DNA of 64,000 bases from Microbotryum violaceum (taxonomy: Eukaryota). Each line of letters opens with the position of its first letter. The first letter of the stretch is position 1. Shown here piece by piece: positions 40,435 to 62,779 of the stretch. The position numbers were made by a program, and so were the translations under genes. The notes under the pieces are model-generated. The model ran no database searches and was not told the DNA's origin. It saw only the letters and a list, made by a program, of their open reading frames with translations. The stretch spans positions 186,001 through 250,000 of the forward strand of contig LN717261.1 in NCBI GenBank assembly GCA_001244265.2, given 5' to 3'.

Positions 40435-40780
40435 GCTGTGCTGTGCGACCACCCCACCTGCTCCGGTGCGACCTCGACGACGACGACGACGATGAGGAGG
40501 CCGGTGCGCACTCAACCGACGCCTGCCTCGCCTACCCAAGTCACACAGCCCCGATGGAGTCAAGACGAGGGATGAAGGTGAAGCTTGTGAACAATCCGAG
40601 CCAGAGTGCGGTGGCGGTGGTGTCCAAGAAGGTGCGCAACGTGAAGTAGGTCGTACGCACCCGTTCGTATCCACCAGCGTCAGCCAGCTAGTAGCCATCT
40701 AGTAGCCAGCTTCATGAGGACTCCAGGAAGCCCAGCCAGAGGCGCATGCGGAAAAACACCCTTTTTTGGCCTTTACTACT

Positions 40781-43700
40781 TCTATATATAAAAAAAGGTC
40801 GATCCGCGACCCATGTACCTAAAATCGCTGTTTTTAACAGTGTTGCGGCCCTCGGGGCCGCCTATAGTGAGTGTACCAGTACAGTATTACGTCTGCCGCA
40901 CCTGCCTGTGCTATTGGCGTCGCGACCAGAAGTCATGTACGACCCTTTCCGCATTTTCTGCATCATGAAAGTCGTGCTACAGCCCGAGGACAATTTTTGT
41001 TGATTTTTGGCGGGGTGCCCAACTATTGAGCAGTTTGTGTATGATTTAATGTGTAGCAAGCGCGTGGGATTACATGACACTTCTTCTACAGAGCTCAGGC
41101 GTGGTCTCGCTGTCGTTGACGCGCGGACGCGGCCGCCGCTACGCTGCATGCGGGATGCCCCGTCGATCGCGTGACGTATTTCTGGCATCCCGATACCGGT
41201 TTTAGGGGCTCAACAACAATATGAGGTTCCAGGCGCTGTGAATACTCCTGTGAATACTCCGGCGCTACTCTCTCCAATTTTCGCCTTTTCCCTCCCACTC
41301 TCATCGAATTTGCGTGACAACCGCGCCGAGTCTTTGGCGCGAGGGTAGCGCCGTACGATAGCGTACCGCGCCTTACCATGGGAGACAAATGGACCCGCTG
41401 GGCGCCCGGCTCATCTCCTCTCCTCTTCGTCCCGCTTCGATCAACAGAATCAGCTCCCCACAGGTAATGACAACAATCAACCGACCTTGGTATTGCGACC
41501 CGTATAAGTGTCCGCTGTACAGCTTTGTAGAACGGACAGCGTGGTCAGCGCGAGGTCCCGATGGCCGATCCGACGCTGAGCTCGCCCCACCACCACCTCT
41601 TCCTGCGCAGAGCAAGTGCACAGGCCTCGAACCCCGCTCAAACCACTCAAGCCCCACGTTCCCATCCGCGACTACGTCGGCCCCAGATGGCCGTGTGTAT
41701 CCACTTCAAGACTCGACACTGGGAGTGCGAAAGGTCGAAGTCGACCGGACATTTCAGCACGTGCTGCTCGCAGGGTAAGGTGCAGCTACCTCCCCCTCCC
41801 AGCCCGATCCCAAGTATCGAAATCTACTTGAAGGATAGCGGTCAGTTGCTCCGTCCAACAACATCCGTCTACAGTAGACCCGCATGCTGAACTGTGCAAC
41901 CCACCTACACAGGAGCTCAAGCATTCCGCGAAAACGCCCGGTCGCACAACAACGCGCCGTCTTTCACTTCGACCAGACACGAATCGACACTCTAGGACTC
42001 CCCGTGTTTCGCGTGTTCGGTCGCCTCTATAATCGACTTGGCGCCCTGATCCCTGCCGTGAATCAGCGCCCAGCCTTTGCCCAGACATGGCTCATCGACC
42101 CGGCCGAGGCCACCGACATTCTACTTGGACCCGACAGCCCAGACAGTCACATGCAACGATCTACTTTGACCAAGCTCGAGTCCATGTTGCGCACCGGCAA
42201 TCGCTTTGTGAGGGAGTTCGCATCGGCCAAAGCCCGCGCGGGTTGGGATACGGCCAAAGAGTGGATCCTGCGCCTCTGCCTACCACCAGGCCGAGACCGG
42301 CGCACCCACAACCTTCCTACGTCGAGCACGGAAATGACGATGCTTATCTGCGATTCCGACACCAACACGGGAGATCGTGGACCGCAAGAACGTATTGTCC
42401 AGGTGCACGGTGATCGATGTCCCGATGGTCGGCCCAAGTACCAAACCGTTAGCTCGCTCCATCCGTCTGCGATGCCTCTCCGGTACCCACTACTCTTCCC
42501 CGCGGGGAAGATGGCTTCCACCCCAACATTCCTCTTTGCGGTTCGATCGAGTTGGGCCACTCTTCGCCAAAAGACAGCAACAAAGAAGGTGAGGACGAGG
42601 AGGAAGGGGACAAAAAGAACGGTGATGGTGAACATAAGCATCTTTGGCTCCTCCTCGGGTGTTCCCATTCTGTTAAGGCGCGAGCACAGACTGATATTGA
42701 ATGTTTGAACACCTACGACGAAGGTCAAGTAAAGGGGGTCAAGGTGGTGAGTCTCGCGTTCACAAATCCTTTGCGTTCTACTTGCACAAACGCGACAAGC
42801 CCGCATGGCACTCGACGTCCCTTCCCGGCGTTCGTGATCGAAAGATACTCCCAGGCTGAGGCCGATCGACTCAACTACATCCAGTTGCATTAAGAAAACC
42901 TACGCCTCACCACGACCCAAGGCATCAACGGCTTAACCCCGGACCAAATTGGATGCTTGATGACTTTGGGCTCGATGTTCAAGAATAGACCGCGCGACAT
43001 CACGCAGCGATACCAGGATGCGATGGCGTGCGTTGTCAAACATGGAAAGCCTCCGCTGCTCATCACGATGACGTGCGTTCCTGAATCACCGCAAACCAAG
43101 GCTGCACTGGGGCCGAACGACAAAGCATGCAACCGTCCGGATCTCATTGCACGAGTGTTTGAAGCCAAGTCTGGCAGCAAGCGACATCCAGGCTGTTTCG
43201 GCGATGAATGTAGGATGAATGGATTTGTTTTTTTTTTGCTGTACTTCGTATTGGGTTTTTTAACCTGAAATTGCGTAGACTGTACAATTATCCTGCTATT
43301 TAAATTTCATCCTCCCTTTAGTTTAACGGGTTCCCACTAGCTTTATTATACAGTTTTAAGGATTGCGGCTCACCATCCGTGGCAGATCCTCAACGGCTCG
43401 GTTCGGTGGAGTGACCGTCGCGATGGCAGGTGTGTGCCAATCTTTCAAAAGCAAAGCGCAGGGCAGCATGACTAAATAACTGACCGGTTGGACTGTAACT
43501 TCACAGGGGACAACTTTTCCCAAGATGCCTTCCCGTTATTCCCAAGTCATCACCTGCACATATCGTCGACGCTTGCATCATGGAATGCTGACTTCTGGGG
43601 GGAAGTTGAGGTGCTGCTTGGCTTTGTACGGTTGAGAATCCGGGTCATTGGAACACTAAATGTGAGTTTTCACTGCCATTGCTACAGATGGACAACACCA

Positions 43701-45032
43701 ACAATACTGATAGTCGAATCACGCAAGAAAACAGGCTCTGATTGCGTGAATTGCGGCTCACCATCCCGTGGCAGATCCTCAACGGCTCGGTTTGGTGGAG
43801 TGACCGTCGTGTTGACAGGTATGTGCCAATCTTTCAAAAGCAAAACGCAGGGCAGCATGACTGACCAATTGGACTGTAACACCACAGGGGATCCGAAGCG
43901 ATACCTTCCCGTTATTTCCAAGTCATCGCCTACATAAATCATCGATTTCGTTGATGCTCCGGGAGGGACAGGCAAAACAAAACGTTCTTGTAAGAAACGG
44001 TCCTTGGATTCGGTCAGAGGGAACATACGCTCTTGCCGTTGCATCATCGGGTATTGCTGCACTGCTACTGCCAAAAGGCAGAACGGCACATTCACGGTTC
44101 AAGATCTCGATCGACATTTTTGACGACTTTACATGTAATGTTCCGAAACAAGGACAGCTCGCCGACCATTTTCGGATGTGCGACTTGATCGTCCGGGACG
44201 AGGCACCGATGGAGCACCGTTGATGTTTCCAGCTGGTGGACAGGATGTTGCAAGATGTGCGATCGTCAACAGCTCGGTTTGGTGGACTGACCGTCGTGTT
44301 GGCAGGTGTGTGCCAATCTTTCAAAAGCCAAACGCAGGGCATCATGACTAACTGACCAGTTGGACTGTGACATCACATGGGATCCGAAGCAATGCCTTCC
44401 CGTTATTACCAAGTCATTGCCTGCACAAATCGTCGACGCTTGTATCATGAATGCTGACTTCTGGGGGGAAGTAGAGGTGCTGCATCTCTCTGTAAGTAGC
44501 AGTCCTTGCCTGTTTGACAGGTTGTCTGACTTCCGGCCGAACTGGAAATCTCTCTGCAGTAATGCAAATACTTACTAGCCACTTCCTGCTCTGGACAACA
44601 GTATAACTTCTTCAAGATCACCCTAAAAGTGTGGCCACAGCGAAGTTCCAAGAACCCCTCCGAAGATCGTCAGCGTTGCCAAGATGTGACGTGCGCCTCA
44701 GTCTGCTTCGTGTTTGTTTGACCGCGCATTGGTCCCCCCGGTCGCTGGCGGTGTCTTTGCCGGCAGCTTGTAACGCTTCAGCCATACCTTTCAATGACTG
44801 TGCCATACGGTCGACTCACTCGGAAATAGCCAGAGGCAGATTGAAAGGTGATGGTGGAGGCAAGAGGGAACAAGGGATGGGGATCGCGAGCGGTGTCAGT
44901 GAGTGGGAGGAAGGAAAAGGAGGCTCGCGACGGCGCGTGGACTTGGTAAACAACACGCGGCCGTGGCCTAATGCGAGTCACTTGGCCGTGACGGCGCTTG
45001 CGCCCACGTCCTGGCGAAGGCCCGGTTCGCGC
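40781..45032 (+). mobile_element. Degenerate Helitron (Rep/Pif1 helicase fragments) inserted in the left inverted-repeat arm
   Basis: 5' TCTATATATA; 'HWECE...CCSQGKVQLP', 'RVFGRLYNRLG', 'PLRYPLLFP', 'YQDAMACVVKHGKP', Walker A 'DAPGGTGKT', 'ASSGIAALLL..GRTAHSRFKI' and 'DEAPM'. HUH motifs missing; right boundary uncertain. Confidence 0.85.
43362..44482 (+). repeat. Three copies of an intron-containing Pif1 helicase segment
   Basis: 'GCTCGGTT(T/C)GGTGGA..GACCGTCG...GTGCCAATCTTTCAAAAGC...TTCCCGTTATT' near 43395, 43785 and 44272. Confidence 0.85.
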
Positions 45033-46505
45033 CACCTCTGGCTATACATATAAGCACGCTGAAAAGTGGCGCGCGCAGCGCGCCTCCGACCCTCGCTTCC
45101 GCGCGGCGTAGCCATACATGTTGCCCGCCTACAACCCGGGTTGCTGGATGGCCCGAGGACTAGCGCAACACGGAGGCTGGTGTGGCCTTCAACAAGTTCA
45201 TCTCATGTACGTGCGAGCGGGTAATCCAACAAATGCTGCCATCGTGTATAAAGCATATTCGGAACACTCATCGTCAATTTCTTCTTTAGATTAGTAGCGA
45301 GAAGAAGCTCGATTAGAACATCATTACATCACTACATCATTACATCATTACATCATTAGCAGAGGGGATAAGGTGGCGTTGATGGAGGTGATTAGGTCAC
45401 GTGCCGTCTCACCACGCTGATAGAACGGAGCGAGCCGTAGCGAGCCTGAGCGCGAGTGAGCGACAGCGTTGCCGCTTGACGCGCCGCTATCGATCACAGT
45501 CCTGGTCTTACTATTTTCTGTCCCCTTACGCTTTCAGTCGTATATCTTGATTCGAAGCCAACCGACCATACGATATGTTGCCTCTCCTGTCTGCTCCCGG
45601 CAACGCGTCAGCGTTTGCCGCTCCCACCCGCGGGCGAGGTTGGCGGGCGAAACAGGTGTTGCGTCGTTCGCGCGGTAGTCCACGTCATTTCGGTCGCCGC
45701 CTTTCGACGCTGAATAATACTCGAATGCAGAGCCTCGTCGCTGAGTCGAGCCGCCGCTCATCGGGTCCTTCTACCGTGGACGTGCGCCACACAACCATCG
45801 ATCTCGACGCATTCCGAAGGGAACTTGGCCTGACCCCCGATCCAGCCGCGGAGCAGGCCGAGCGAGACCGCGATGACATGTATGAAAGACGATTGGAAGA
45901 ACTTTGGGTTCACAATCGGAGCAGGAGGTCGAGGAAGAAGATGATGCTGAGCTCGGGATGGCGGCGGAGAGTCAGGCTCGAAAAGGGGTGAAGACTCGGA
46001 CGACCTCGAGATTCTCGACGAGCCCATGGACTAATAGTAGCTAGGGATGGTTTGGCGCATTTGTTGACTGTAGATTGTGGGCTATTGAAGGAATTTACTT
46101 TTTGTATGCGGCCCATATCGCACATGGTGGGATGTGGACGCCAAAGTGCACAAAAGTAAATCGAATGTCAGCCTTAAATCAAGCGTTGACGCGTTGACGA
46201 CCACGATCCCACGAGCCGGTCGCCACGGCCACAGTCGCCGAACGTCAGTGCTTGAAGGTTCTGCTAAGTTCAAGACTGAAAATTGGTGCACATCGGTGCT
46301 GACATTTTCGGGTTCAGGTTTGGGAACGTTGCCAGACCCGTGGGCCCGGGGGCGGGGGGGAGGATTGGTGTTGTTGTAGTTGTTCTGTTCCAACAGCACC
46401 CCAAAGTGGGTCCAGACGCGTTCCGAGTGAACAACGGCACTCACTACTAGTACTAACACGGAGGACCTGAGGTCTTGGGTGCGTGACACTGCACGCCCAC
46501 CGCGC

Positions 46506-47431
46506 GTGTACCCCGAGGGTACGCAGCGGAGGTTGCAGTGGCGGAACACTCGTTGTACAGTGCTTGCGATAATACGTCAGCAAGAATCGATGAAATACGT
46601 CACCGCATACCTTCTTCCGTTGACGTGATAGTTTATGTAGTCAAGTGAGCAGGGATATCGGTCCATCGGCCAAGGACCTTGTACTATAGGGGCTGTGTAC
46701 TCCGGGGTGTGGCCACTCCCGGGAGTACACAGCGGAAGAGTGGACCGGTCCTGCGTGCCCCCGGGGGTACACAGGCGCTTTCCCGCTTGCGCCTTGTGTG
46801 CCCCCGGGGGTACAAAGCCGGTCACCGGTGGCAGATCACTGTATAATAACATATATGATTCTCCAACGGCGGGAGGTTAATCCTTTCGGTAACTTCAGAC
46901 ACATCCTGGACTTTGAGCGGGTGCATGGAAGTTCGTTGTAGGCAGTTTTGCTCTGCTCTGCTCGGTGGTTCGAACGAAGAATTCAGCTTGGGAAGTGCGT
47001 TAGCCTTGCGGGCTTTTCAGAGTGCAAGTCGGATGTAGCAAACAAATGTTTCGTCGGTCTTGTCGCAGGAGATTATTACATTCCGTACCTGCAGACACAT
47101 CCTGAGCTTTGAGCAGGTGCGTGGAAGTTTGTTGTAGTGCAGTTTCGCTCTGCTCGGTGGTTTGAACGAAGAATTCAGCTAGGGAAGTGCGTTGGCCTTG
47201 CGAACTTTTCAGAATGCAACCCGGATGTAGCAAACGAATTTTCATCGATCTCGTCGCAGGAGATTACTCCACTCAGTAACTGCAGACATATCCTGAGCTT
47301 TGAACGGGTGCGTGGAAGTTTGTTGTAGTGCAGTCAGCAAGGGCATTGGCGACGGACCGCGCCTGAGCCGTGGAACCCCGGGAGTACACAGCTGGAGAGG
47401 GCACCGGTCATGTGTACCTCCGGGGGTACAC
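46506..47431. repeat. Cluster of imperfect GTGTACCCCCGGGGGTACAC palindromes flanking a ~195-bp tandem repeat (46896-47331, ~2.3 copies)
   Basis: Palindrome variants at 46506, 46695, 46715, 46753, 46796, 47375 and 47412; 'CAGACA(C/T)ATCCTG' repeat units at 46896, 47092 and 47283. Confidence 0.88.
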
Positions 47432-47578
47432 ACCGCCATGCCGGTTGTACAGTGCTTGTTAAGAGTGTCCTAGAATTGATGAAGCATGTCGTCGCATACC
47501 GCTTCCTCATTTCCGAAGGCGCGGGACTCTGTTGTAGTGTATCTACGCCCTGCCCTAAGGTTTAAAATTGAACAAGAG

Positions 47579-50500
47579 TTTCCGCCTTCGGAGTGCGTTG
47601 TACCCTCGGGGTGAATCATGGTTGCAGTGCAGGATCTCCATTGACACAACATAAAAGCTAGACGGCTACACACGCTCACGGAAAACTCGAGACGGTCATC
47701 GCCTAACCGGTGAATTGACACTCATGGTGCTTCATGTCCCAGTATCCAGGCCGCGCTCCAGCTCGCTCAGGCTGGTCAGCTCGGAGAGGGCGGAGAGATT
47801 GCTTTCGGCCTCCGAGCCGGCTGCTGATCTGTGGTCGGAATGCTGGCCGGTCGCCGAACTGTATTCCGATATCGCGTCCTCCTCTCGTGCCCCTGAGGTC
47901 GACGCGGCACCCTCTCCGCCGGACCCCTTCTTGCGCATCCAACAATACGCGTCCCTCTGTTTGCTCGACAGCGCCAATCACCTGTGGGCACAAATAAGAG
48001 ACTGACGAGCGTGTATTCCAACCGTCTGTTAATTGCATATGATAGTAGCCGTAGTGCTAGATGTACGTACCTGACGAGCGTGTAATCCAACCGTGGAGAG
48101 AAGACAACGGTTGGTGCGCATCGCCAGGCTTCACTAAACAAACGCGCGCTTCTAATCAAATAACCGATAGCCGCCTTCCTGCTAATCCTCATTCACAACA
48201 CGCCAACTCGCCCCTTCACGCGATGAATCTATAAGCCCCATCGCGTGTACAAACTGATAGTGCCTCTGTGTCCCGAGCCCCTTGGTGAGGACGCTCGCAG
48301 CCATGGTGCCCGCGGGCACCCAGACCATCTCGATCGTGCCTTCCGCGATGTGGTCCCGGATGAAGTGAAAGTGGATGCCAATATGTTTGGTACGAGCATG
48401 GAAAGCCGGGTGCTTGGCCAGAGTGATGGCGGACTGGTTGTCACCTCGCAAACGAGTCGGAGCGGTCTGCTCGAAGCCAAGATCCGCAAGCAAACGACGT
48501 AACCAAATCTCCTCGCGAGCGGCGTATGACATGGCCACATACTCGGCCTCGGTACTGGAGAGGGTGACGAGAGTCTGTCGCTTGGCGATCCAAGAGATAG
48601 CCCCACCAGCGCACATGAACACGTAGCCCGAGACGCTCCGGCGAGTGACCGGGTCGGCGCCATGATCAGCATCGACGAATCCCTCCAAGATTGCCGACAT
48701 AGGCTGGAAGGACTTCTGATAGCGGATGCCAAAATTGCGGGTACCGACAAGGTAGCGCAGGATGTGTTTGAGCGCCTCCCAATGCTCCGCCGTGAAGTCG
48801 TTGCAGAAACGAGCAGCCTTTGAAACGGCAAACGCGATATCGGGTCGGGTGGTGCCAGAGAGGTGTAAGAGCTTGCCTACAATGGCGCGATAGGGGATCG
48901 AGGCAGGATCAAAACCGGAGTCAGCGCGATTCCTCAGAGTCGACGGAGCCGCGAGAGGCGTGGGGCGGGGGGAGGCATTGGCCATATGGTGTTCCTCGAG
49001 GATGGCATCGACGAAATGTCCCTGGTTGACAATCGCAGCACCCGTCTTGCCCTCACGACGGATGCTCTGGCCGAGGAAGAAGGAAGCCTCGTCGGTGCTG
49101 CGAGCTTCGAACCGAGCCTTGAGCTGACAGAGCACGCCGTCGAGATCCCCGTCATCCGTGAGCAGACCGTCGTTGACATGAATGGAGAGGAAAGACCGTC
49201 GATCCCCCTCTTTGCAAACGAAAACGGCATGGTCACTGTCGGTGCGGGTGAAGCCAATGGACAGGATCCATTCAGTGAAGACCTTGTACCACTCGCGGCC
49301 CGCCTGAACGAGGCCGTAGAGAGCGCGCTGCAAGCGCACAATATCGCCTCCGGGTAGTCGCATGTAGATCTCGGTCCCACCGAGGTTGCCGTTGAGGTAC
49401 GCAGACGAGACGTCGAACTGGCGGGCCTCCCACTCGTTCTCGACGGCGAGGGCGAGTAACAGTCGATGAGAGGCGGCTCGACCTGTGGGCAAGAACGAAT
49501 TGATATGCATCCCCCGACGTCTTTGCATGTCCCCGCGCGCAACAAGTCGAGCTTTGTACTTGACAATTTGTAGTCAGGCGGACGGCGGGTCCGGGTGGAG
49601 CAATCACCATCGGGCGGTGCGTTTGCCGGGCCAGGGTTCGAAAATGCGAGGGCGGGCGGAACGGGTGGCGGAGCGGCGGCAGCGGGAGCCACGACCGGCG
49701 CTTCGGCGACAGGGGGCGCAGCGGCGGAACCGATGCCGAGCGGCGCGGGCGGGTAAGACAAACCGACCGCAACAGGGATGGCAGGCATGGCAGGGCTCAC
49801 CGCAGCGGGAAAGAAACGGTCCTCAAAGAACCTGGCCTGAGACGACTCAAAGACCTTGTTGCGAACCGGATCAAAGAAGCGCCAGGCCTTGGATCGCGAG
49901 GAGTAGCCAACAAAGTAGCAGAGGCGGGATTGCGGGGCCAGCTTGTTGGTCGAGGCGGGGGCGGCGGGTGTCCGTGACCGGGTCCGAGGGTTCGTGCAGC
50001 ACAGAGTCTGGGGTGCGCTGCTGGAGCGGCGACGAGGGGAGCAGATTTATGACGCAGATCGCGGCGTGCACCGCTTCATCCCAAAGTGCGGGAGGCAGTC
50101 CCGAGCGATGGAGCCAGGCGCAAACGGAGTTGAAGATCGTTCGCCAGCTGCGTTCCTGAACGCCCATCTGGCCGTGCTCGTACGCTGTGGAGAGCTTGTG
50201 GAAAATGCCCCGCGCGGCGAGCCAATCCCGGTGTAAGGCGCGGCTCCACTAGCGCCTCACGACCGCCTCAAGCCACCCTGGGGCCGCGCCAAAACTCGCA
50301 GGCGCTCGTCGTTTGACGGGCTACACCGGCAAACTCACGAATGCCCCTGAAAGCAGCTCCTTTCCTCAGAGCTTCACACGCTCACTGGTCTTTCCCCCAC
50401 TCTCTCTATCTTCTTACACATAAAGTCCTCACGTAAACACTCCTCCCTATCTTAGTCGCGCGGAAATACTGTGCATCTCGAGCAAACGACGCCCAGTGAA

Positions 50501-51759: not shown

Positions 51760-52945
51760 CTCAGCAATCCAGAAGTCCCAGGTCTTCTTCCTTTCGGGCT
51801 CGAGGTCCGCATCGGTGGGCGGCTTGGGAGGTTTGGGAACGTGGACGAGCACCGTTGTTGCAAATGGTCTGAGCGCTGCTTGCCAGGTGCGATGTTCGCT
51901 TTCTAACTGATCCCGGTAATCGTCCGGGAAACGTTTCCCGAGAAAAGGGCGGTACGCCTTTCGGATCCATCTTAAAAGGCGGTCACTCCCCTCCTGGTCC
52001 TCGTCGGTCCTTACATTGTCCTCAGGGAGGGGGCGTTGGCACTCTTGGCACAGGGGTGAAAGGATTTAACTGAATAGGCGCGATTCCTCATGTTCGGCGG
52101 CAATGTCGACGGGGACGGTGAAGATGCGCGCGAGGATATCGTCGAAGTCTTGGATGCGGGTCCTATACTCCTTCAAAACTCTCGCGCTCCCTCCACCTCT
52201 CTTTCGCTTCTGGTTTTCGTATGCATCGAACAACACGTTCCTCCAATGGATGAGCACGGTCAACAGGCTCCGAGGCAGACGTCCATTCCCTTTGTACCCT
52301 GCCCATTCATCCCAAACAGGCCACATGACGTAGTCGATCTCCTCCCGGACCTCATAGTCAAAATTTTCGACGTCCTCGGGAATTGGGTCTTGACTCATGA
52401 TGTCTTTGGGTTCCATCGCCAGCCGACGCGCCCTTTCCGCCGCCCACTCGTCGTGCCTCGCACGATCCGCTTTCCCCGGCGCCTCCAACATGTCAAGCTT
52501 GGCCTGCAACTGCCGGCGGTATCTTTTCTTTAGGTGGCCAAAACCCTAATCAGATCAGATAAGTACATCAACAAAGGTTTAGCCGAATTCCACATGGTTT
52601 GTTTCTGATCTCCTGGGAAAGCTGTCTAGCACTCACCGCTTGGACCTCACGGTCGGTACCGATCAGCTCAAACGCCGCCTCGTTGCATCTGTACCGACTG
52701 TCGACCGTAGACGAATTGAACGCGCGCTTGTGTATACGAATGATATGTTTTTTCAGGTTTCGTTTGGCCTCATGTGCATGTTCCGGTGCTACAGTTGGTC
52801 CGTCGAGTGACCTGTACCCTTCAGGCAGCTTGTAGTGTTTGTTGCAAAGTTCACAACGGACACGCCATTGGCCGGACTCGTCACGGATGAGATGCGAGTC
52901 GATGTCGAGCCAGGCGCGGTCGCCCTCGGTGGCGCGTGGTGCCAT
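51499..52945 (-). pseudogene. Element-borne gene: C2H2/BED-like zinc finger plus HMG-box-like domain, frameshifted
   Basis: ATG at 52945; 'CELCNKHY...NLKKHIIRIH'; HMG-like 'GVTAF.RW' and 'CAHRWLALSSEQRDAY'. Confidence 0.5.
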
Positions 52946-52998: not shown

Positions 52999-55900
52999 GT
53001 GTACCCCCGAGGGAGGACCCCGAAAGCCCAGCCGGAGGCGTTTTTTTTTTTTTTTTTTTTTGACATTTTGAGGACCCAAAATCCTGAAAATCGTCGAGGC
53101 GCATTGCAAAAAATTGACATTCTGGGACGAAACACACGTTTCGCCCCGAGGCGCATGCCCAGATTTTGACATTTTCCCGTGAGTCGGCCCAATTTTGGCC
53201 TACTCTGAGCAGCCTTCGGCATGACTCTTGGCCCGTTTGCCTTCGCTTCGAGACGCGATGCTCGCGCTTGAACAAGTCACTAGCCCAAGTCGTATGGACT
53301 TATACCCTCCAACGTCATCTCCCTGGTAATGGCTCGCCCTCCCGACTCGGATCCTCATTCGGTCTTCAAAGCCTGCTTTTTCGGCCCGCCAAACCAGTAT
53401 CGGAATCTCATCGAGCTAGGCGATTGCATGCGCAACACGCCGACGTCAAAGTCAATCTGGTTTCTACCCCTCTGCTCCGACAGCCATTGGGTCCTGGCCC
53501 GCATCAACATGCACAAGCGGACATGGTCTGTGATCAACTCACTCTCCGCCACTCCGATCACCGCGGCTACTCGGACGGCCGTCCTTACGCTATTCAAATT
53601 TCTGAAGCTGGACATCAAAAACGAGTTCCCTCATACTCCTAAGGCGGAACAACAGGAAGACAGCTACTCGTGCGGGCCGGCTACGATCAATGCAGTGGAA
53701 CGGAGGTGCTCGGGATTGGGTCATTCAACGCAGCGAGCGCTCACATGTCACGGCTCCGTCAATTCTGTCGTTTATCCTCTCTGGTTGGTGCTGTCGAGGA
53801 TCCCAAAGAGATCGAATCCATCGTTGCCACGGGAGCAAAATCAAAGGCAAAGTATTGGAGGGGATCCGCTGCCGGAACACTGAGCAGCAAGAGCACGTCG
53901 GCAGAGTCCGGCAAGGCAGCGACAATCAAGCCAACAAATCAACGAGTCGCATCATCCTCAAAAAACCCGCCAACTTCTCGACTTCAAACGACCTTCACCA
54001 AGGTATCGAAGCCGACGAAAGCTCGAGAGCTCCCCCGAGGAGCATACGACGTGGGCTCGCGACCATCCGCCTCTTTTCAGGAGGTTTGCTGAAAAAGTCA
54101 AAGATCTTTGCCCGGGATCGAATGTCGACGTCAACAATCCAAAGTACGTGCGGTGTGGACGTTGTTATGTCTTGGTTCCAATGGCGGCCTTGCTGTGCAA
54201 GGCACGATTTCAATTACATCTCGGCAATAAGAAGTGTGTCAACCTCCAACCCATCAGCAATTTCTTCAGACCTATCGCCTCTGGCTCAACTGCTACCAGC
54301 CCCTCGCTAGGACCGTGCCCCGGCCTTACGTCTGAAACGACGATGCATTATCTTTCATCAACTGCGGCACAGGGTGGCGGGGCCCCTCCTTGACGGACGC
54401 TTTGTTTGCGCCTCTATCCCAAAATTGGTAAACGACCAATGACGGAGCTCGAGAGGAAGGAGGTGGACAAATTGGAAGCGAATGAATGGAAGTGGCGCAA
54501 CGATCATCGAGCACCGCGCATCATCAGTGTGAATTGTCGCAAGTATAGCGCTCGAGATTCGATCAACAAGGACGGACCAAGCTTACCGTGTGAAGAATGC
54601 GCGAGGCTTCCTAAGGATTCATCCTGTCGAGCAGCTCTTCGACGTCAATATGCTGCTGGCGCAACTCGCAAATACACCAACAAGAAATATGTCGCGGGCG
54701 ATACACTTCTCTCGGCCATCTAGCGGCGACATCATGGACTAGAAGAGATCCTGGATGACAACGGTCAAGGGACCGTGTATCTACGATTCGCGCAAGGTGT
54801 GGCCTCAGGAGAATTTGACGGAGCGAACATCTTGGAGGGATTGGTGAAAGCGGCTACAGTCAAGCACGATCGGATGGTCAAGGGCAAATCAATGCGAGGC
54901 TTTGTGCGGTCCGAAGCGCTGCGTGACTTCGAGCAAGCCATGGCGCTGGCGTCTCCGATGGCTCTGAGAGTGCTGCAGGCTACAATCGGCGCATCCACAA
55001 GCCGAAAACTGCAGTGAGTACCGTCATTCTTTCGTTCCTTCAATTCAACCTCATACTGAATGATCGAGGTGCTTGCAGAATGGACGAGCGACATCAGGCA
55101 GGATGCGCCTCGGCCTCGACAAGTCCAACATGGATCGTGTCTGCGCGAAACTCGAAGCAGACGGCCTAACGTTCAATTTGCACGTAGACGACACGAAGTG
55201 TCGATCCAGGATGCGAACCACTCCATACTACTCAGAAGACCTCAGTTTAGAGCGTGAACTACGTACGAAGGGCATATTCCGCCACGAGCTGATCGGATCA
55301 ATTGGTCCGCCACCCATCTACGAAACTCCGAGTGAACTCCCTGATATGTTCAGCGGACCTGACCCCCCGGTTGCTGGAACCAAAGTGAGTGGCAATGATG
55401 CTTTTAAGTTTGTACTTCATTTCCATGAGGCTTTAACATGTGTCGCCTCTTCATTCAGATCCGAGCTTACATGATAGCACCGAACGATGTTGGCTCCCCA
55501 GCACAGGTGTTTGCCGCTTTTGTGATCGGCGAAACTACGAACGCGGAGGACGCGACCAAACAGTTACATTCAGTGATACAAGAATTAATAAAACGTTGCG
55601 TCGCACACCTTCTGGTATCCATCTCCGCAGATGGTGCGGCAAGCGAGGGTGTGCTGCAACGTAATGTTGCCGTCCTTCTGCGCGATCAGGGTGGCGCTGT
55701 TGCTCAAACCGGATCAAGGAACGCGTCATCATACACCCTCCCCTCCCCAGATCCGGACGGAGTGTTTCCTGAGATCACTATATCGACCGTCAACGTCGCG
55801 GGAACGCCGATAGTCTTCTGTCGGGACGGAAAACACCTGGCCAAATGTCTGAGGAACGCTATCGACTCTGGAGCAAGATTGCTGTTCGGTGGTCTCGGAT

Positions 55901-58748
55901 GCATTGCCTACCAGGATATGCTCACCATCCTGGGCGGACTGGAGTCGCGTCGTACTCTGTCTCGTCGTGATGTGGTCGGGCGTGATCGTCAAGACGACAA
56001 TGCAACACATCGGGCATTCTCCAAGGCGACGCTCGAACTCGTAACCGAACTCGCCGAAGACAAAAAACTCGACCCCGATGCGGTCGTATATCTCTTATGT
56101 GGCGAGTTACACGATGCCATCCAGAACTGGTCGCTTCAGCCCCTTGAACGTATCAGGATGTTGCTCGTTGTCAGATATACGTTCGAGGCGTGGTATGACT
56201 TTGTCCGAAGTCGCCCCGGATCTAGCTCTCACTCGTTCCTCGCCAAAGAAACGCTTGATGGGGTCAGGAAGATGGTTGACTCAACGATTGCTTTCGTCCG
56301 CAACTACCGAGATTTTTGGCCGAAGGAATCGTTCATTCCCTGGCGGCATGGCACAGAAATGGTGGAGCACTTCTTCGGGGGTATACGCCAGATTGTAAAG
56401 GAGTTCGATGCTCTAGAGTTCTTGCAGGTGCGTTCTTCATAAATCAATCTAAACTATACAGTAGTTAACCCGGCTAGAATCCGACAGGCAACTGGCAAAG
56501 TCACTGCACTCTTGGAGCTCATGAGGAAGTTTAAGACCGAGGCGGCGGGATCACGTCAAGGCTACCATCATACCTACAACGACCTCGACGATCTTGACCT
56601 TGTTGCGATGCGAACGTACCCCAGTGATGGCGACGTCTCTCTCACCAGTTTTGCAGCGGCAAATACTGCGCGTGAACTGCTTTCAGGTTTACGCATGTGG
56701 GAGCCTGTGCAACGCATCGCGTCCAACAGACGCAACCAAGGTCCGCAACCTGACATACTCGTCGAGGACGTACTCGCCCATGGCACAACAGTTCAAGGTA
56801 GTTCCGAACGACTTGGTCTACAAGTGATGCGTATCTGACACGGGATACCATGCCCACTTTAAGTAGATCTTGAAGACCATCATCCTACCAAGGAAGATCA
56901 AGGTCTGCTCCGCACCGAATTGCTGGATTCTGCTCTTGATGGCCTGCGGCGTAGCACGTGCCAAGGTGTTGTGAAACTGGACCCAAACGAGCGGGAAGCT
57001 GTCGACCGTGCAATTCGATTGCTTGCAGCTCTGGACTTTGACGTTGAGGCAGCCTTGTGAGTGGACACTTCACTGTGCCACGTGCGCTGAAGCGTTCTTC
57101 TAACTTTTAATCCGGACCTCATATTGGTCTCCTTTCTCATTGGCCAGACTCGACGTGCAAATCGCTTACGACGAAGCTGACAGACAAGCTGAGGAACGCT
57201 ACGTACTCGAGACCATTGAGAAGGCAAACAGCTCATTACGTCCAATCGTGCGTCTACCAAGCTTAACTAGCGTAATTTCGATCTGAACTCATGCATCTTC
57301 GGTACTATACAGCCTACACACTTGAAACTTCCGCCTCTTGTTGATGCTCGCGATACCAGTTTCTCGCTGAACTGGGCCAGCTTGATTGCCCATCGAGCTG
57401 CTCATGAGTGTAGCCACCTCAGAGCTGTTCTACTCAAAGGGAGGCCAATGGAATTGAGCGACACAAGCCGCGGAGAGGCAGGCTTAGAGATTAGCAATAC
57501 AGAGCAAGGACGCAGTGCAGTACATTCACGCGTCTTGAAAGGGTTGGTGCAGTCCATGGGACCATCTCGCTTCGAAGACATTGCGGGCACCGCAAGGAGC
57601 TTTCGCTGGACTGGAGGTGGCCAGGTGGCCCGAGCGCTCACAACAAACGAGATTCAGAAGAACGCCTATATTGAGGATGGTCGCATTCAAGTGAGTTGTT
57701 GCTGAATTTAGGAACGAAGACAACTGGATCTAATGTTTTGCCGGTCCTGTGCTTTTAGGAAAAGCTCCCTGAGAGACACAAGCAGTATGGAGCGCTAGCA
57801 CAACGCTATCCTCATTTTGGATCGCTTGACGGAGCTGTAACCGCTGCCACACCATTGGAGATTGGATCTCTGATCTGCTTTGGCCTCAAGTGTGGCATGC
57901 ATTCACTCAGCTGCGATCAAACTGTTTATGGAGAAGAAGCGCTGTCTATCGGAATTGGTACGCGCGTTGTTTTGAGTGGCAGTTGAGGAAGTTCTCGTTT
58001 GACACAAGTATTGTGTCCTACAGTGCGACACATCTACAGCAGAGTGACACCAAACCACTGCAACCAAGACACGCTCGCCTCGTTGGTTCTACTCTCAGAT
58101 GTCGTCGTACAGGAGCTTCGCCTCATCAAGAAAACATGCTATTCCACACACCTCATTGATGGCACTATGCCGTTCCGCATGATTGATGGTCGACAGGTCA
58201 TCGAGTCATTAGGCCCGTCAACGACTACATATCGTTCAACCACGGACCTTACCTCACGTTACCCGGACGAGCGCCTAATCAGCACGAGCGCACATGCCGA
58301 GCAAAGGTTTGCCGCCCTTCGGAGCGTGCCCGGCCTGCGAGATGCCGCCGGCAGAACCTCTACAAGTCGCACAAATGCCACCGCGGAAACAAGGAGCTCA
58401 ACTTCAACAAAAAGGAAGTCTGACAACGAAGCAGCGAGCCAGCCAGCAAAGCAAGGAAGGCTTGTTTGAAGCCTGGAGCCACGCGCAACACCAGCCGAAG
58501 CGACGCGCGCCGCAATCCACTTTCGATAGGCCGCGGCGCGCCCGCAAACGCTCGGAACGCGTTTTCAAGGACTTTGAGCGATTTTTGGAGCATGTAGAAC
58601 ACATTTTGATAATATTTCCGAGGCGCATGTGAAATTTTGACATTTTGGGGCCAAAATAGGGTAAAAAACTTTGACAAAAAGGCCAAGAAAGGGCGTTTAT
58701 CCGCATGCGCCTCTGGCTGGGCTTTCGGGGATCCTCCCGGGGGTACAC
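52999..58748 (+). mobile_element. Inner TIR-bounded unit encoding a Ulp1-protease/P-element-like transposase
   Basis: Ends 'GTGTACCCCCG(A)GGGAGGA(T)CCCCGAAAGCCCAGCC.GAGGCG' inverted at 52999 and 58748; subterminal 'GAGGCGCAT...TTGACATT' repeats; no TSD seen. Confidence 0.7.
53329..58469 (+). pseudogene. Ulp1/C48 SUMO-protease domain fused to a P-element/THAP9-like DDE transposase, with introns, stops and frameshifts
   Basis: C48 'SHWVLARIN...INSL...QQEDSYSCG'; transposase 'LHVDDTK', 'SISADGA', D(2)H 'DGKHLAKCLRN', 'DRQDD' and 'EMVEHFFGGIRQ'; in-frame stop at 54721. Confidence 0.72.
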
Positions 58749-58840
58749 GTCGCGCCTCGCGTCACCTCACGTCACCGAGCGCGCGCGCTCTCCTCTCACA
58801 GCATCACCGACACCGCGCGCGTCACAGCCGATCCGATCCG

Positions 58841-59210
58841 ATGCCCTCAGCGAATCACGACAAGTTACAATCAGCGATTCTCTCTGCGGGACACAAAGGT
58901 CAAGGTCATCGAGTATTTGCACGAGACAAGATATACTGGCCACCTGGCACATTGCCTGTCCCAGGCGGGAAGCAACTTGAATACGTAGTCGGCACCGAGC
59001 GCGTCGGACCTATATGAAAGCTTGCAGTTTATGCAAGCGACTCGGCCAACAACGAGCTTTGCTACTACGAAGTCATTGACGCCTCAGCACCAAGCTGCCA
59101 CTATATCGATGCCGAGTTTACGCGCCCTTCCATTGACAATTCAGCAGAAAAGGCATTGATTACGCGTAATGCAGCGTCGTATTTCCCTGGCACATATGGT
59201 CAGCTAGCCA
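58841..59210 (+). pseudogene. Decayed ORF of unknown function within the large element
   Basis: ATG at 58841 just downstream of the shared terminal motif; protein-like frame interrupted by one TGA at 59015-59017. Confidence 0.3.
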
Positions 59211-59811
59211 GTTCGGACACCTTGCGATGTTGCGTCTGCAGGTCAGAACTGCCGAACTACCTTGTTCCCCGCTTCTGTTTTATATCTTTTGTTCCAGCGT
59301 TAACGAATAATCTCGGCTTTCATTCTCACCGCGGGCACACCGTTTGGAGAACCCAACGCGAAGCGTGTTATTACGGACATTCTCGACAGCTTGAAGGTTC
59401 TGCTCTCACTTCGCCGGCGTCTCGGGGGGTCCGAAGAGGTAGTCGGAGAAATTTGGGTGCTTTGCTGTTGTCACCCCTAAGCTCTGGGGCGAGCTTAACT
59501 GCAGTTTGACATTAGGTAGGATGCGTGAGTGCTTTATTTGGACATCCATTATTTGCCTGAATTGAATGTACGGAGTAAAGTCTGAAACGTTAGGCGTCAG
59601 TAAATCTATTTGCTTTGCGATCAAAATCGCGTCGCATAATTGATCAACGGACGAATCAGCTAGTCAAGATGCGTGGAAACTTGTTGAATACCTCTTGCCA
59701 CACACAGGTCAATATCACCTCAACGACTACAAAAAGTTTGGCAATCTATCTCAACGCGCGATAGGCGCACCAACAATATACTGAACAACAGAAGCGTAGT
59801 CGGATTCGGAA

Positions 59812-61654
59812 TCAGGATGTTGCAGCTCCCAAATCAGCATCAGAATCGGAATTAGAATTAGAATCAGAACCAAGATCAGAAGCAGAAGCAGAATCAGATC
59901 CAGAGACTTGGTCTTCTGGCTCCGTTTCCAACTGTCCGGTTGTCACAGTACCTTCAGCACGAGTGCGGTCAAAAGAGCCCTGGCCTATCTCCTCTTTGAG
60001 TGAGAAAGTAAGGCCACCCTGTCGCATCATCCGCAACGGTCGGCTTCTTGCCCTTTGTGGGACTGCGGAAATCACGCTCTTGAAGACCATTTCCGAACTC
60101 GACAATAAGAGCGATTGGATCCTTCGCAAGAGTTGCCTGGTTATAACTCGTAAGCTTGGAAAGCACGTAGGGCTGAGTAGATCTACTTCTCTGGTGGCGA
60201 CGATGGAGCGCTTGATCTGCACGGCCACAGATGTTCAGTACTAGGCTGCAAAATGTGGGCACAGAGCCGTGGAATGGTTGCTCACTATAGTGATCGTCGA
60301 TTATGATGCTATACCATGCGCAGAGCACTCGTTGAGACGCCTTGTCAACATCGCCATGGTTAGCTGCTCATCAGATTTTGGAATCAGCGCCAATCCATCA
60401 CCGAGCACAAAATACGTTCTAAAGCTTGCTTGACAAACCCCGCATCTTATATTGTTTATTTTGCTCCTGATTAAACCGAGACCCATTAACGCAATCCATG
60501 AAGTTGACTAGAATATCTTTTTGCTGGTCAGAATCCCAGCCTTGGCGACGCATGAAAGCTGCGCCGCCAAGCGTAGAAACGATAAAACGATCATTTTTTC
60601 GTTCTCGAGCTTGTTCGAGCTGACGATGACTAACGCGTCGAAGCCGTAGCCCTCAGCATACTGCTCAACCTAATTCAGTGCCGAGCTACGTAAGTCAGCA
60701 GGGGGAACTTGGCCTTTGAGGAGGCGGAAACGGAGAGCCGAGTCTTCACGGACCAGCTCGTTCATCGCATTTTCGTATCTGCGCCGCAGTTTGGAGATGG
60801 TAGCAGAATCGATTCGCCATCGCTTGAGGGGCCGAGCGGTCTCCTTTCGATCACGCGCTTCACTTGCCCTCGCTTCCTTCCATTGTTCCCAGAGTTCTGG
60901 TGAGTTTTTGACTTGTTCCCAGTAGCGTGATCCAATCGCCTGTAGCGCAGAGAAGTCTTTCGGGACTTTGTAGGGGTCCGAGTGATGGATTTGTCTGTCA
61001 GAGTAGCGTCTTGTAATGGAGAGTAAACGGTTTCGGGATGAGTCAGGAAGGCAGACGCTACACTTACCCTCGAGTCCGTTCTTTTCGAGGAGACAACGGA
61101 AGAAGCGGCTGGTCTTGAAGTCATTCCAGTCGTTTCGGTCGTTGCTTCGAGTCGCAGGGGGCGTGTACGAGTCGAGATCGTCGTCCCGAACTCCATGCCG
61201 CAAACAGTATTGCATCTTTTCGAGGCGACGTTGCAAGTTATAGAGCACGTGGGTCTCCTTTTGCGACGATGACAGGCGCGAAGTCGAAGGCAACGCTCGA
61301 ACGGCATCGTGGAGGGCTCGGATCTCATCCTGAACCTCTTCGATTCGATGACTCATTGAGTTGGACGAGTTGGACGTGGTCGGCCTTGAGGCGAGCGTCG
61401 TGCTTCGTCCATCTTCCGCGATGCTGGAAGCAGAAATGTGGTGCTGTTGTGTCTGAACGGTCGCTGAGGACGACAGTACAGACCCCATTTCGGGCTGCTG
61501 GTCGATTGCACCGAAGCATCTTCGGCGGTAACAACGAGGAATGAGGAGTAGGGTCAGCAGACAATAACAAAACAATCAAGACACGAGGACGCGTCTCACG
61601 GTCGGGAGCGGCAAACGCTGACGCGTTGCTGGGAGCAGACAGGAGAGGCAACAT
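59812..61654 (-). CDS. Element-borne multi-exon hypothetical gene with an HMG-box-like segment and acidic S/D tail
   Basis: Begins inside the right IR (MLPLLSAP); 301-aa ORF with 'FSALQAIGSRYWEQVKNSPELWEQWKEA'; (GATTCT)n-encoded tail. Exon structure uncertain. Confidence 0.4.
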
Positions 61655-62779
61655 ATCGTATGGTCGGATGGCTTCGAGTCAAGATATACGACCGAAAGCG
61701 GAAGGGAACAGAAAGTAGTAAGACCAGGACTGTGATCGATAACGGCGCGTCAAGCGGCAACGCTATCGCTCGCTCGCGCTCAGGCTCGCTACGGCTCGCT
61801 CGTTCTGCCAGCGTGGTGAGACGGCACGTGACCTAATCACCTCCATCAATGCTACCTTGTCCCCTCCGCTAATGATGTAATGATGTAATGATGTTCTAAT
61901 CGAGCTTCTTCTCGCTACTAATCTAAAGGAGAAATTGAGGATGAGTGTTCCAAATATGCTTTATACACAATGGCAGCATTTATAAGATTGGATTACCCCG
62001 ATACGAGCTCGCACGTACATGAGATGAACGTGTTGAAGGCCACACCAGCCTCCATGTTGCGCTAGTCCTCGCGCCATCCAGCAACCCGGGTTGCAGGGGG
62101 GGCAACATGTATGGCTACGCCGCGCAGAAGCGAGGGTGGAGGCGCGCTGCGCGCGCCACTTTTTAGCGTGCTTATATATATAGCCAGAGGTGAATAGAGG
62201 TAGTAAAGGCCCAAAAAGGGCGTTTTTCCACGTGCGCCTCTGGCTGGGCTTTCTGGGGTCCTTCCTCCCTGCTATTCGCGCGATTGACCTAATTCCGATT
62301 TATATTCGCCCGTCCTTTGTCAGACACCGTGCCACCCGTGCCACCACCTCATCGTCAGCGACACCTAGTTTTCATCTCGCCTGTCCCTCGCACTGCTTCA
62401 TACCTCCTACTCCAGGCGTCCAGTTGCTGTTCAGTGATCATCACCAATCGCGTGCTCGATCCGCTCCGCTTACTGGTCCTCGTGAGTTGCAACCTGCAAC
62501 GCAGGCCCTGCGCTGCCCGCAAGGCCGGCGATGCGCCTCGTCCAAACGTAAGTCTCCCGTCGCTTACTTTGTCGGCGCCGCCTTCATCTCGCTACAGATT
62601 AATAGGACGTCCATAATCTGCCTCGTAACCTCTTTGATTCCCTTGGCGCATCCGACCATTGCACCTGCCTTCGTCCTCGCGCTTCGAAGCCACCTCAATC
62701 TCGATCTCAAACAATCCTCGAGAGCACGCAAACCTAGGCTCTACCACTCCCGCGTTTCCTGGACGATTCGCGATATATC

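What the first reader, a model, noticed from the sequence alone, without database searches (positions are those of the whole stretch)
40717..62262. 21.5-kb multi-gene element with ~660-bp inverted repeats inserted between divergent kinesin-3 and HOG1
Seen: the right arm (61604-62262) matches the left arm once the 4.25-kb Helitron is removed. Each arm holds an inward TATA (TATA(C/T)ATATAAG), a (CATCATTA)n tract and the first ~17 codons (MLPLLSAP.NASAFAAP) of an inward-reading ORF, after which the two ORFs diverge. The interior has a Ulp1-P-like transposase, two HMG-like genes and orphan ORFs (~13.5 kb without nested insertions). Inference: a giant cargo-carrying cut-and-paste transposon that does not match the textbook fungal families I know.
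Basis: partly seen in the sequence, partly recalled or inferred. Interest (0 to 1): 0.82.

Follow-up and report, generated by a model that had tools for sequence, protein, structure and literature searches.

The report
Nested transposons around a long-armed element
The 21.5-kb block is not one giant cargo transposon: it is a roughly 7.8-kb multi-gene transposon of the anther-smut fungus Microbotryum, with 660-bp inverted arms, swollen by three later insertions, one of which is a separate P-element-like transposon.

Summary
The arms 40717-40785 plus 45033-45625 and 62262-61604 are inverted, about 90% alike, and split on the left by a 4,247-bp insertion.

- The Ulp1/P-like transposase belongs to a separate nested 5,722-bp element (53014-58735) with its own inverted ends and an 8-bp target duplication. 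DNA contigs from three public runs join 53005 directly to 58736, which is its empty site.
- A modelled homologue matches the Drosophila P transposase (E 1e-12).
- A third insert (47993-51335, carrying a Copia RT fragment) lies between a 425-bp duplication of a gene's 3' end.
- Without the three inserts about 7.8 kb remain, holding two Microbotryum-specific genes that I call R and M.
- The outer 60 nt of both arms match the nested element's ends (87-88%). I therefore infer that the same transposase moves the arm-bounded unit.
- All 13 gene-M loci examined have a gene-R homologue within 1-3 locus tags, so the unit is a dispersed multi-gene repeat.

Against a single insertion here: the outer 8-bp flanks differ (GCTTCATG and TCCTCCCT) and no empty site was seen. 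This copy is decayed. No HMG domain was found.

The parts
40717..40785 (+). Outer 69 nt of the left arm. The terminus starts with AGGAC at 40717. It shares about 60 nt with the ends of the nested P-like element.
   Evidence: (89.9% to 62262-62194; 88% to 58736-58678).
40786..45032 (.). 4,247-bp insertion that splits the left arm. It is an unclassified, highly repeated element with internal repeats of about 390-490 bp (43362-44494) and a GGTCGCGGATCGACC hairpin plus a T-run at one end. The Helitron identity is untested.
   Evidence: There was no Pfam hit on 5 ORFs. Summed depth is about 25 times the flank in run X1.
45033..45625 (+). Rest of the left arm: TATA-like motif, (ACATCATT)5 tract, and an ATG at 45575.
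45575..45991 (+). 138-aa ORF starting in the left arm. It is Arg-rich, has no Pfam hit, and lacks 1 nt at 45902 relative to the contigs of all four runs. It is probably not a functional gene.
   Evidence: table 4.
46692..47434 (.). Cluster of GTAC(C/T)CCCGGGGGTAC-type palindromes (4 matches to the 20-mer, none elsewhere in the window) around three 192-bp tandem repeats (46853-47334). The nested element inserted into a motif of the same kind.
47568..47992 (-). Left copy of a 425-bp direct duplication (93.4%). It encodes the last 86 codons of gene M a second time, with a stop at 47980.
47993..51335 (-). 3.3-kb mosaic of repeat fragments, including a Copia reverse-transcriptase fragment (48182-49528). 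It has no LTRs of its own and shows breakpoints at 47991 and 50230/50231 relative to other copies.
   Evidence: RVT_2, 4.9e-29; loose ends.
51502..52945 (-). Gene M (451 aa in full-length homologues, with an N-terminal CxxC...HxxxxH zinc-finger-like motif). Exons are 52945-52638 and 52545-51502, and the intron 52546-52637 is skipped in RNA-like contigs. The window copy has a stop at 52068. The right copy of the 425-bp duplication (51336-51759) covers its 3' end.
53006..53013 (.). Left copy of the 8-bp target duplication of the nested element (CCCGAGGG). The right copy is 58736-58743 (CCCGGGGG).
   Evidence: joint 53005->58736.
53014..58735 (+). Nested P-superfamily-like transposon (5,722 bp) with ends AGGAC.../...ATCCT. 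A single long intron-containing gene (53290-58575) encodes a Ulp1/C48 domain and a P-type transposase core. This copy is defective: it has an internal deletion of about 0.8 kb ending at 53290 and in-frame stops at 54391 and 54721.
60034..61654 (-). Gene R (400-433 aa in M. saponariae homologues). Exon 1 (61654-61600) lies in the right arm. The introns 61520-61599, 60966-61067 and 60670-60753 are skipped in RNA-like contigs. The window copy is out of frame between exons 1 and 2 and carries 2 extra nt at 60599.
61604..62262 (-). Right arm. The terminus AGGAC (reverse complement) ends at 62262. The arm similarity stops about 10 nt into intron 1 of gene R.
35122..38397 (-). Left flanking gene: kinesin-3 type (DUF3694, Kinesin_assoc, FHA and KIF1B domains).
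62860..64000 (+). Right flanking gene: a protein kinase. I read it as Hog1/p38-like by eye. It lies in single-copy DNA.
   Evidence: Pkinase, 2.1e-6, below the gathering score because the exons are split; depth.

Best explanation
The interval is a nest of transposons in the divergent kinesin-3/MAPK promoter region of a Microbotryum genome. Its frame is one decayed copy of a roughly 7.8-kb multi-gene element with terminal inverted repeats. The 660-bp arms each carry a promoter-like region and a first exon that reads inward. Inside lie two family-specific genes, R (driven from the right arm) and M (zinc-finger-like). Three later events enlarged it to 21.5 kb: a 4.25-kb repeat in the left arm; a 3.3-kb repeat mosaic with a Copia fragment, flanked by a 425-bp duplication of the 3' end of gene M; and a 5.7-kb P-superfamily-like transposon inserted into a CCCGGGGG palindrome with an 8-bp duplication.

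Mechanism: the Ulp1-fused P-type transposase cuts at ends beginning AGGA(C/T)CCC and pastes with 8-bp duplications. This is shown for the nested element. The arms of the big unit start with the same ~60-nt terminal sequence, so I infer, but have not shown, that the same enzyme moves the unit in trans, as a long-armed non-autonomous partner. This particular copy is probably immobile and may be a recombinant of two copies, because its two flanks do not match.
For: - Arms and nesting.
- Terminal sequence: four termini begin AGGA(C/T). 40716-40774 matches 58736-58678 at 88%, and 58678-58738 matches 62205-62265 at 87%. The 19-mer core occurs 4 times in 64 kb, only at these ends, against an expected 0.04.
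- Empty site of the nested element: one contig in each of 3 of 3 DNA runs joins 53005 to 58736 (skipping 5,730 nt, with 4 nt of overlap), at 2.7-5.4 times the depth of the single-copy flank contig. Duplication: CCCGAGGG and CCCGGGGG.
- P-type enzyme: the AF2 model of homologue P0002 has pLDDT 77.5. Foldseek's top hits are 6p5a/6pe2, the Drosophila P transposase (E 1e-12, TM 0.68 on the target); the next hit is RAG1 at 5e-4. The protein atlas gives 0.92 to TNP-like clusters.
- The unit is a repeated family: the gene-R contig has 8.4, 7.3 and 6.9 times the depth of the flank contig in X1, X2 and X9 (a rough measure).
- Gene linkage: 13 of 13 members of the gene-M cluster have a gene-R homologue 1-3 locus tags away, at 12 M. 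saponariae places and one M. lychnidis-dioicae place.
- Recent spread: the M. saponariae M copies are 98-100% identical to one another.
- Arm exon: M. saponariae gene-R models start with MSSLSAPSNASDFAAP, the arm's exon 1, in frame.
- Deletion derivative: model P0174 joins arm-like sequence to the C-terminal half of gene M.
- Expression: an RNA-like run skips GT..AG introns in the transposase gene, gene R and gene M.
Against: - The 8 bp outside the two outer termini differ (GCTTCATG and TCCTCCCT, 3 of 8 alike). No partner 8-mer lies next to any other end.
- No empty site for the outer element was seen. The right junction is bridged in 3 of 3 DNA runs, and the left junction lay outside the 20-kb stretch laid.
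- I could not look at the DNA of any other copy, so whether other copies have two inverted arms about 7-8 kb apart is unknown.
- 46002-46668 has only about 1.4-1.9 times the flank depth. It may be unique DNA between two separate partial elements.
- In M. silenes-dioicae the annotated M and R homologues are not neighbours (tags 80 or more apart).
- No P-like protein from M. saponariae appeared among the 12 hits or the 10 clusters. The proposed trans-acting enzyme is therefore not shown in the species where the unit looks most recently active.
- Pfam's P-element models do not hit the family.
Confidence: 0.6

Rival explanations
1. The arms come from two different copies. Either two partial elements of the same family inserted separately in opposite orientation, or one copy exchanged an end with another by ectopic recombination or aberrant transposition. 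In this reading the 21.5 kb was never one mobile unit.
For: The outer 8-bp flanks do not match. The arms differ by about 10%. The stretch 46002-46668 is nearly single-copy by depth. An internal 425-bp duplication and a mosaic insert point to rearrangement. In run X2, contigs follow the left-arm type to 45644 and then diverge (table 7). Two earlier findings of this scan in another organism were resolved in the same way (an analogy only).
Against: No further copy of the terminal core lies anywhere between the arms except the nested element's own two ends. Both hypothetical elements would therefore have lost their inner ends. The repeated DNA starts exactly at the two AGGAC termini and fills the whole interval between two single-copy genes.
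Confidence: 0.27
2. This is a single giant (13-21 kb) cargo-carrying cut-and-paste transposon of an unknown family that encodes its own Ulp1-P transposase.
For: The inverted arms enclose a transposase gene whose element shares the terminal sequence.
Against: The transposase gene lies in a discrete nested element with its own ends, an 8-bp duplication and an empty site in other copies. In M. silenes-dioicae the P-like genes are 25 or more locus tags from any M or R homologue. The outer ends have no duplication. The enzyme family is P-like by fold.
Confidence: 0.05
3. This is a local inverted duplication of a promoter plus first exon, unrelated to transposition.
For: Each arm is a promoter-like region plus exon 1, and the similarity ends at the start of intron 1.
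Against: The outer edge of both arms is a transposon terminal sequence. The arms and the enclosed genes are multi-copy and dispersed over many chromosomes in a sister species.
Confidence: 0.05

Closest known systems
P superfamily of DNA transposons (Drosophila P element, THAP9)
   Same: For the nested element: the predicted fold of the transposase core matches the solved P transposase far better than any other solved transposase. It also has short inverted ends, an 8-bp target duplication at a GC-rich palindromic site, and defective internally deleted copies.
   Different: An N-terminal Ulp1/C48 peptidase domain is present. No THAP domain and no Pfam TNP-like or P-element hit was found. The proteins are 1,400-1,900 aa long. 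The family is confined, as far as sampled, to Basidiomycota (10 of 10 named representatives).
Galileo and other Foldback-like long-TIR members of the P superfamily in Drosophila
   Same: Very long inverted arms (hundreds of bp). Copies are often chimeric and lack matching target duplications. The enzyme is of the P type.
   Different: As I recall, Galileo encodes its own transposase and makes 7-bp duplications. Here the long-armed unit carries two or more non-transposase genes, and the only P-like gene inside it is a secondary insertion.
Non-autonomous gene-carrying TIR elements (Pack-MULE-like, and fungal KDZ/Zisupton elements carrying TET/JBP genes; passages of PMC12730594)
   Same: These are multi-gene units bounded by inverted repeats and moved by a DDE transposase. 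Zisupton also makes 8-bp duplications.
   Different: No KDZ Pfam model hits the transposase family. No TET/JBP or other recognisable domain is present in genes R or M. The genes are lineage-specific rather than captured host genes.
Starship giant cargo transposons of Pezizomycotina (recalled)
   Same: These are large fungal mobile units carrying accessory genes.
   Different: No tyrosine-recombinase 'captain' was found in what was scanned. The host is a basidiomycete. The ends are inverted repeats of a DDE-type element. The real size is about 7.8 kb.

Membership tests
P superfamily (nested element 53014-58735) | RNase H-like DDE transposase core with the fold of the P-element transposase, including its inserted domain | tested here: met
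   The model of homologue P0002 (62% identical to the window ORF; pLDDT 77.5) matches 6p5a/6pe2 at E 1e-12 and TM 0.68 over 541 columns. The next hit is RAG1 at 5e-4. The atlas features score 0.92. The inserted GTP-binding domain was not examined separately.
P superfamily (nested element) | 8-bp target-site duplication | tested here: met
   CCCGAGGG and CCCGGGGG flank the element. The empty-site contig reads GTGTACC|CCCGGGGGTACAC in 3 of 3 DNA runs. hAT and Zisupton also give 8 bp, so this feature is not exclusive.
P superfamily (nested element) | Terminal inverted repeats | tested here: met
   52999-53040 matches 58748-58708 at 90.7% over 43 nt, which includes the palindromic target. The true ends are AGGAC... 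and AGGAT....
P superfamily (nested element) | N-terminal THAP DNA-binding domain, and recognition by the Pfam P-element/TNP-like models | tested here: not met
   None was found at E<=0.1 or 0.01 in 11 family proteins or in the window frames; only C48 was found. For this reason I call it P-like by fold rather than a proven member.
KDZ / Zisupton | KDZ transposase domain and associated CxC clusters (Pfam) | tested here: not met
   No KDZ model hit (11 proteins).
One large cut-and-paste transposon spanning 40717-62262 | Matching target-site duplication outside both ends | tested here: not met
   GCTTCATG against TCCTCCCT.
One large cut-and-paste transposon spanning 40717-62262 | Empty site in a related genome | tested here: inconclusive
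   The right junction is present in 3 of 3 DNA runs laid. All are nearly identical to the window (0-2 differences in about 1.8 kb). The left junction was not covered. No whole genome is held.
One large cut-and-paste transposon spanning 40717-62262 | Other copies enclose the same gene set | tested here: inconclusive
   Genes R and M are neighbours at 13 of 13 M loci. The arms, boundaries and intervening 1-2 gene models of those copies could not be read.
LTR retrotransposon (47568-51759) | Flanking direct repeats are LTRs with a 5-bp duplication | tested here: not met
   The 425-bp repeats encode codons 366-451 of gene M. The flanks AAAAT and CTCAG differ. Only an RT fragment is present.
Helitron (40786-45032) | Rep/helicase gene or 5'-TC...CTRR-3' ends with a 3' hairpin | tested here: inconclusive
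   There is a hairpin plus a T-run at one end, but no TC/CTRR ends and no Pfam hit on 5 ORFs. The six frames were not scanned in full.
Starship | DUF3435 tyrosine-recombinase captain at one end | tested here: not met
   No such hit in all six frames of 58700-62300, in two frames of 51600-62300, or in the ORFs. The remaining frames of 45033-58700 were not scanned.

The most novel reading that the evidence does not exclude
The arm-bounded R-M unit may be a previously undescribed kind of multi-gene mobile element of anther-smut fungi that does not merely borrow a P-like enzyme. Its long inverted arms would act as inward promoters for its own conserved genes (M, R and 1-2 more), and those genes would be needed for, or regulate, its spread. 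It burst recently in M. saponariae (12 loci, M proteins 98-100% identical), a species in which I saw no P-like transposase. In addition, the Ulp1-fused P-like transposases would be a large basidiomycete-wide lineage (1,202 cluster representatives) that current domain libraries do not recognise.
Probability: 0.18. Interest if true: 0.8.

Novelty: new variant of a known kind. Interest (0 to 1): 0.5.

Why it matters
P-type transposons are listed as near-absent from fungi. In passages of PMC5751038, the Repbase fungal entries come only from Pucciniales and Allomyces, and that survey found 11 domain-bearing copies. Here a Ulp1-fused P-like enzyme family with 1,202 cluster representatives (E<=0.001) turns up across Basidiomycota, together with direct evidence of an insertion and its empty site. 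The long-armed partner unit carries expressed, lineage-specific genes and appears recently active in M. saponariae. It is a tractable case for asking how non-autonomous elements acquire and keep genes. It also bears on repeat growth in Microbotryum, a model for transposon accumulation on non-recombining mating-type chromosomes (PMC10502011, passages). For the scan, the result shows that a 'giant cargo transposon' call can dissolve into nested ordinary-sized elements.

Tried and rejected
- Whole-genome look-up: none is held.
- Earlier findings for this genome or for the arm sequence: none. A search by words gave only analogies from other organisms.
- First reading of 47568-51759 as a Copia element with 425-bp LTRs. 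I dropped it when full-length gene-M homologues aligned straight through the right 'LTR'. My first host reconstruction (7,377 bp) therefore removed one repeat too many; the corrected size is 7,802 bp.
- MLPLLSAP as the start of gene R in this copy: after splicing it runs into a stop after 73 aa. It is in frame only in M. saponariae homologues.
- Structure of gene M: the AF2 model had pLDDT 39 and was unusable, so I did not run a fold search.
- Gene R: no Pfam domain above cut-off. The atlas gave only unnamed basidiomycete clusters.
- PDB sequence search with the transposase profile: only Ulp1/SENP proteases were hit.
- Metagenome scan for the 19-nt terminal core: 20 loci, but BLASTN of 40001-63000 against them gave only one 26-nt match, so these are chance hits.
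- Search for inner partners of the outer 8-mers: none lies next to an end.
- Parts without cover, and the 0.00-share run X22, were not used as evidence.
- Literature (passages in 36, 53, 71, 72): I found no description of a Ulp1-fused P-like transposase in fungi or of this Microbotryum family. Supplementary TE tables of PMC4469406 and PMC10502011, which may list it, could not be opened, and Repbase could not be consulted.
Full report
OBSERVATION

The inverted repeat is real and lies at the stated coordinates. 40717-40785 pairs with 62262-62194 (69 nt, 89.9%). 45033-45625 pairs with 62192-61604 (607 columns, 90.0%, E 0.0). The 4,247 bp between the two left pieces (40786-45032) is an insertion relative to the right arm. 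Both arms carry the TATA-like motif, the (ACATCATT)n tract and the inward ATG with MLPLLSAP(G/S)NASAFAAP. The flanks are a kinesin-3-type gene on the minus strand and a protein-kinase gene on the plus strand that I read as Hog1-like.

ORGANISM

No genome is held for the window. Protein searches place it in Microbotryum. The transposase ORF is 95-97% identical to M. silenes-dioicae models. Gene M is 97% identical and gene R 86% identical to M. silenes-dioicae models.

THE TRANSPOSASE SITS IN A NESTED ELEMENT

A third and a fourth copy of the terminal sequence lie inside the interval, at 53014 (+) and 58735 (-). They bound a 5,722-bp element that is almost entirely one gene (53290-58575).

Contigs from three public DNA runs (X1, X2, X9) each join 53005 directly to 58736, skipping 5,730 nt with 4 nt of overlap. 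The joined form is the palindrome GTGTACC|CCCGGGGGTACAC. In the window the element is flanked by CCCGAGGG and CCCGGGGG. This is therefore an insertion with an 8-bp target duplication, and other copies of the surrounding sequence lack it.

The window copy is defective. It has a deletion of about 0.8 kb ending at 53290 (loose ends; compare P0005). It has stops at 54391 and 54721 where P0003 has R and Y.

WHAT THE ENZYME IS

Pfam sees only the Ulp1/C48 domain. A profile search of the PDB also finds only Ulp1/SENP proteases.

A language-model look-up pointed to P-element transposases, with a score of 0.92 and 188 shared features. I tested this by fold. An AlphaFold2 model of the M. lychnidis-dioicae homologue P0002, built on 69 aligned relatives, reached pLDDT 77.5. 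Its best PDB matches are the Drosophila P transposase strand-transfer complexes (E 1e-12, TM 0.68 on the target over 541 columns). The next match is RAG1 at 5e-4 with TM 0.34.

The family is large. A HMMER profile search found 1,202 cluster representatives at E<=0.001 and 170 at E<=1e-30. All 10 sampled named representatives are basidiomycete hypothetical proteins. Conserved blocks such as CDDTKL, S..DG, QDSKH.LKT.RNN and STE.CEH.FG are visible in the consensus.

Passages of PMC5751038 list P elements in fungal Repbase only for Pucciniales and Allomyces. That survey found 11 domain-bearing copies.

WHAT REMAINS WITHOUT THE INSERTS

I first read 47568-51759 as a Copia element with 425-bp LTRs. 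Full-length gene-M homologues, however, align without a break from 52545 to 51502, straight through the right repeat. Their last 86 residues align again to 47992-47735. The repeats are therefore a duplication of the 3' end of gene M, around a 3.3-kb mosaic that contains a Copia RT fragment and has breakpoints relative to other copies (table 7).

Removing 4,247 + 5,730 + 3,767 bp leaves 7,802 bp. It contains:
- Gene R (61654 to about 60034, minus strand).
- Gene M (52945 to 51502, minus strand).
- A stretch of palindromes and 192-bp tandem repeats (46692-47434).
- A doubtful 138-aa ORF behind the left arm.

Run X21 behaves like RNA. Ten of its 13 listed joints have GT..AG or CT..AC ends and skip 60-102 nt. 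It skips three introns in gene R, one in gene M and several in the transposase gene. The arm similarity ends about 10 nt into intron 1 of gene R, so each arm is a terminal sequence plus a promoter-like region plus exon 1.

In this copy exon 1 is out of frame with exon 2. In M. saponariae models it is in frame (MSSLSAPSNASDFAAP...). Gene M here has a stop at 52068, and gene R has 2 extra nt at 60599. The copy is decayed.

IS THE UNIT A MOBILE FAMILY?

Depth of contigs is a rough measure, as the tool warns. The gene-R contig has 8.4, 7.3 and 6.9 times the depth of the flank contig in X1, X2 and X9. Most bins inside the interval are 5-13 times the flank. 46002-46668 is the exception at about 1.4-1.9 times.

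Gene R has homologues only in Microbotryum (8 hits). Gene M has 17 hits.

Locus tags gave an indirect test of linkage. All 13 members of the gene-M cluster have a gene-R homologue 1-3 tags away. These are 12 places in M. saponariae on many chromosome pieces, in both orders, and one pair in M. lychnidis-dioicae. The M. saponariae M proteins are 98-100% identical to each other, which points to recent spread.

In M. silenes-dioicae the annotated M and R models are not neighbours, and the P-like genes are 25 or more tags from either. One model (P0174) joins arm-like sequence to the C-terminal half of M, as a deletion derivative would.

AGAINST ONE INSERTION EVENT HERE

All four termini start with AGGA(C/T). 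Using that to fix the ends, the 8 bp outside the outer element are GCTTCATG and TCCTCCCT. No partner of either lies next to an end.

The right junction is bridged by single-copy contigs in all three DNA runs: 99, 34 and 99 nt of arm plus flank, with 0-2 differences. These samples are near-identical to the window and give no empty site. The left junction lay outside the 20-kb stretch I could lay.

I therefore cannot separate a single old copy from a chimera of two copies. The low-copy stretch 46002-46668 keeps the chimera reading alive.

MECHANISM

Shown: a P-like element with ends AGGAC.../...ATCCT inserted with an 8-bp duplication into a GC-rich palindrome.

Inferred: the same enzyme acts on the arm-bounded unit, because the unit's outer ~60 nt are 87-88% identical to that element's ends. 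The arms would then drive inward transcription of the unit's genes.

Not shown: any function for R or M. Pfam finds nothing. The atlas gives unnamed clusters. The AF2 model of M has pLDDT 39. Also not shown: the presence of the enzyme in M. saponariae (0 of 12 hits and 0 of 10 clusters; weak evidence).

COMPARISON WITH KNOWN KINDS

The nested element works like, and by fold belongs with, the P superfamily. It lacks THAP and Pfam P-model hits and carries a Ulp1 domain. It is not KDZ/Zisupton by Pfam, though Zisupton shares the 8-bp duplication (PMC12730594, passages).

The long-armed unit recalls Galileo-type long-TIR P elements (recalled, not read) and gene-carrying non-autonomous elements. 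It is not Starship-like.

The Microbotryum papers I could read in passages count TIR elements only as a class (PMC4469406 and PMC10502011). Their supplements were closed.

VERDICT

This is a new variant of a known kind, of moderate interest.

Noticed in passing
window 15538-27139: This looks like a second large element. Its 179-bp inverted ends (15548-15726 and 27129-26951) are 98.9% identical. The direct repeat AGACGGTAG lies 10-11 nt outside each listed arm, which may be an 8-9-bp target duplication if the ends extend that far. Inside is an intact-looking Copia (LTRs 18222-18500 and 22648-22927 at 98.2%, with gag, integrase and RT domains). Six other ORFs have no Pfam hit.
   Followed up: partly
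proteins P0015-P0158: The Ulp1-fused P-like transposase family is widespread in Basidiomycota: Microbotryomycetes, Tremellomycetes and Agaricomycetes among the 10 named representatives. Pfam's P-element and TNP-like models do not recognise it.
   Followed up: partly
M. saponariae proteins P0171, P0184-P0194: Twelve gene-M copies are 98-100% identical at the protein level, each next to a gene-R copy. This looks like a very recent burst of the unit in that species.
   Followed up: partly
window 43362-44494: Three tandem copies of a unit of about 390-490 bp (83-88% alike) lie inside the 4.25-kb insertion. That insertion has the highest summed depth of the stretch laid and shows a spliced transcript on the minus strand (44553->44622).
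   Followed up: no
window 7629-8006: A 378-nt stretch aligns to its own reverse complement at 72% identity (395 alignment columns), that is, a long imperfect palindrome.
   Followed up: no
window 22290-22625 and 52188-51955: The M. silenes-dioicae gene model P0176 aligns partly to Copia-adjacent sequence of the second element and partly to gene M. It is a chimeric model that suggests these repeats lie next to each other elsewhere.
   Followed up: no
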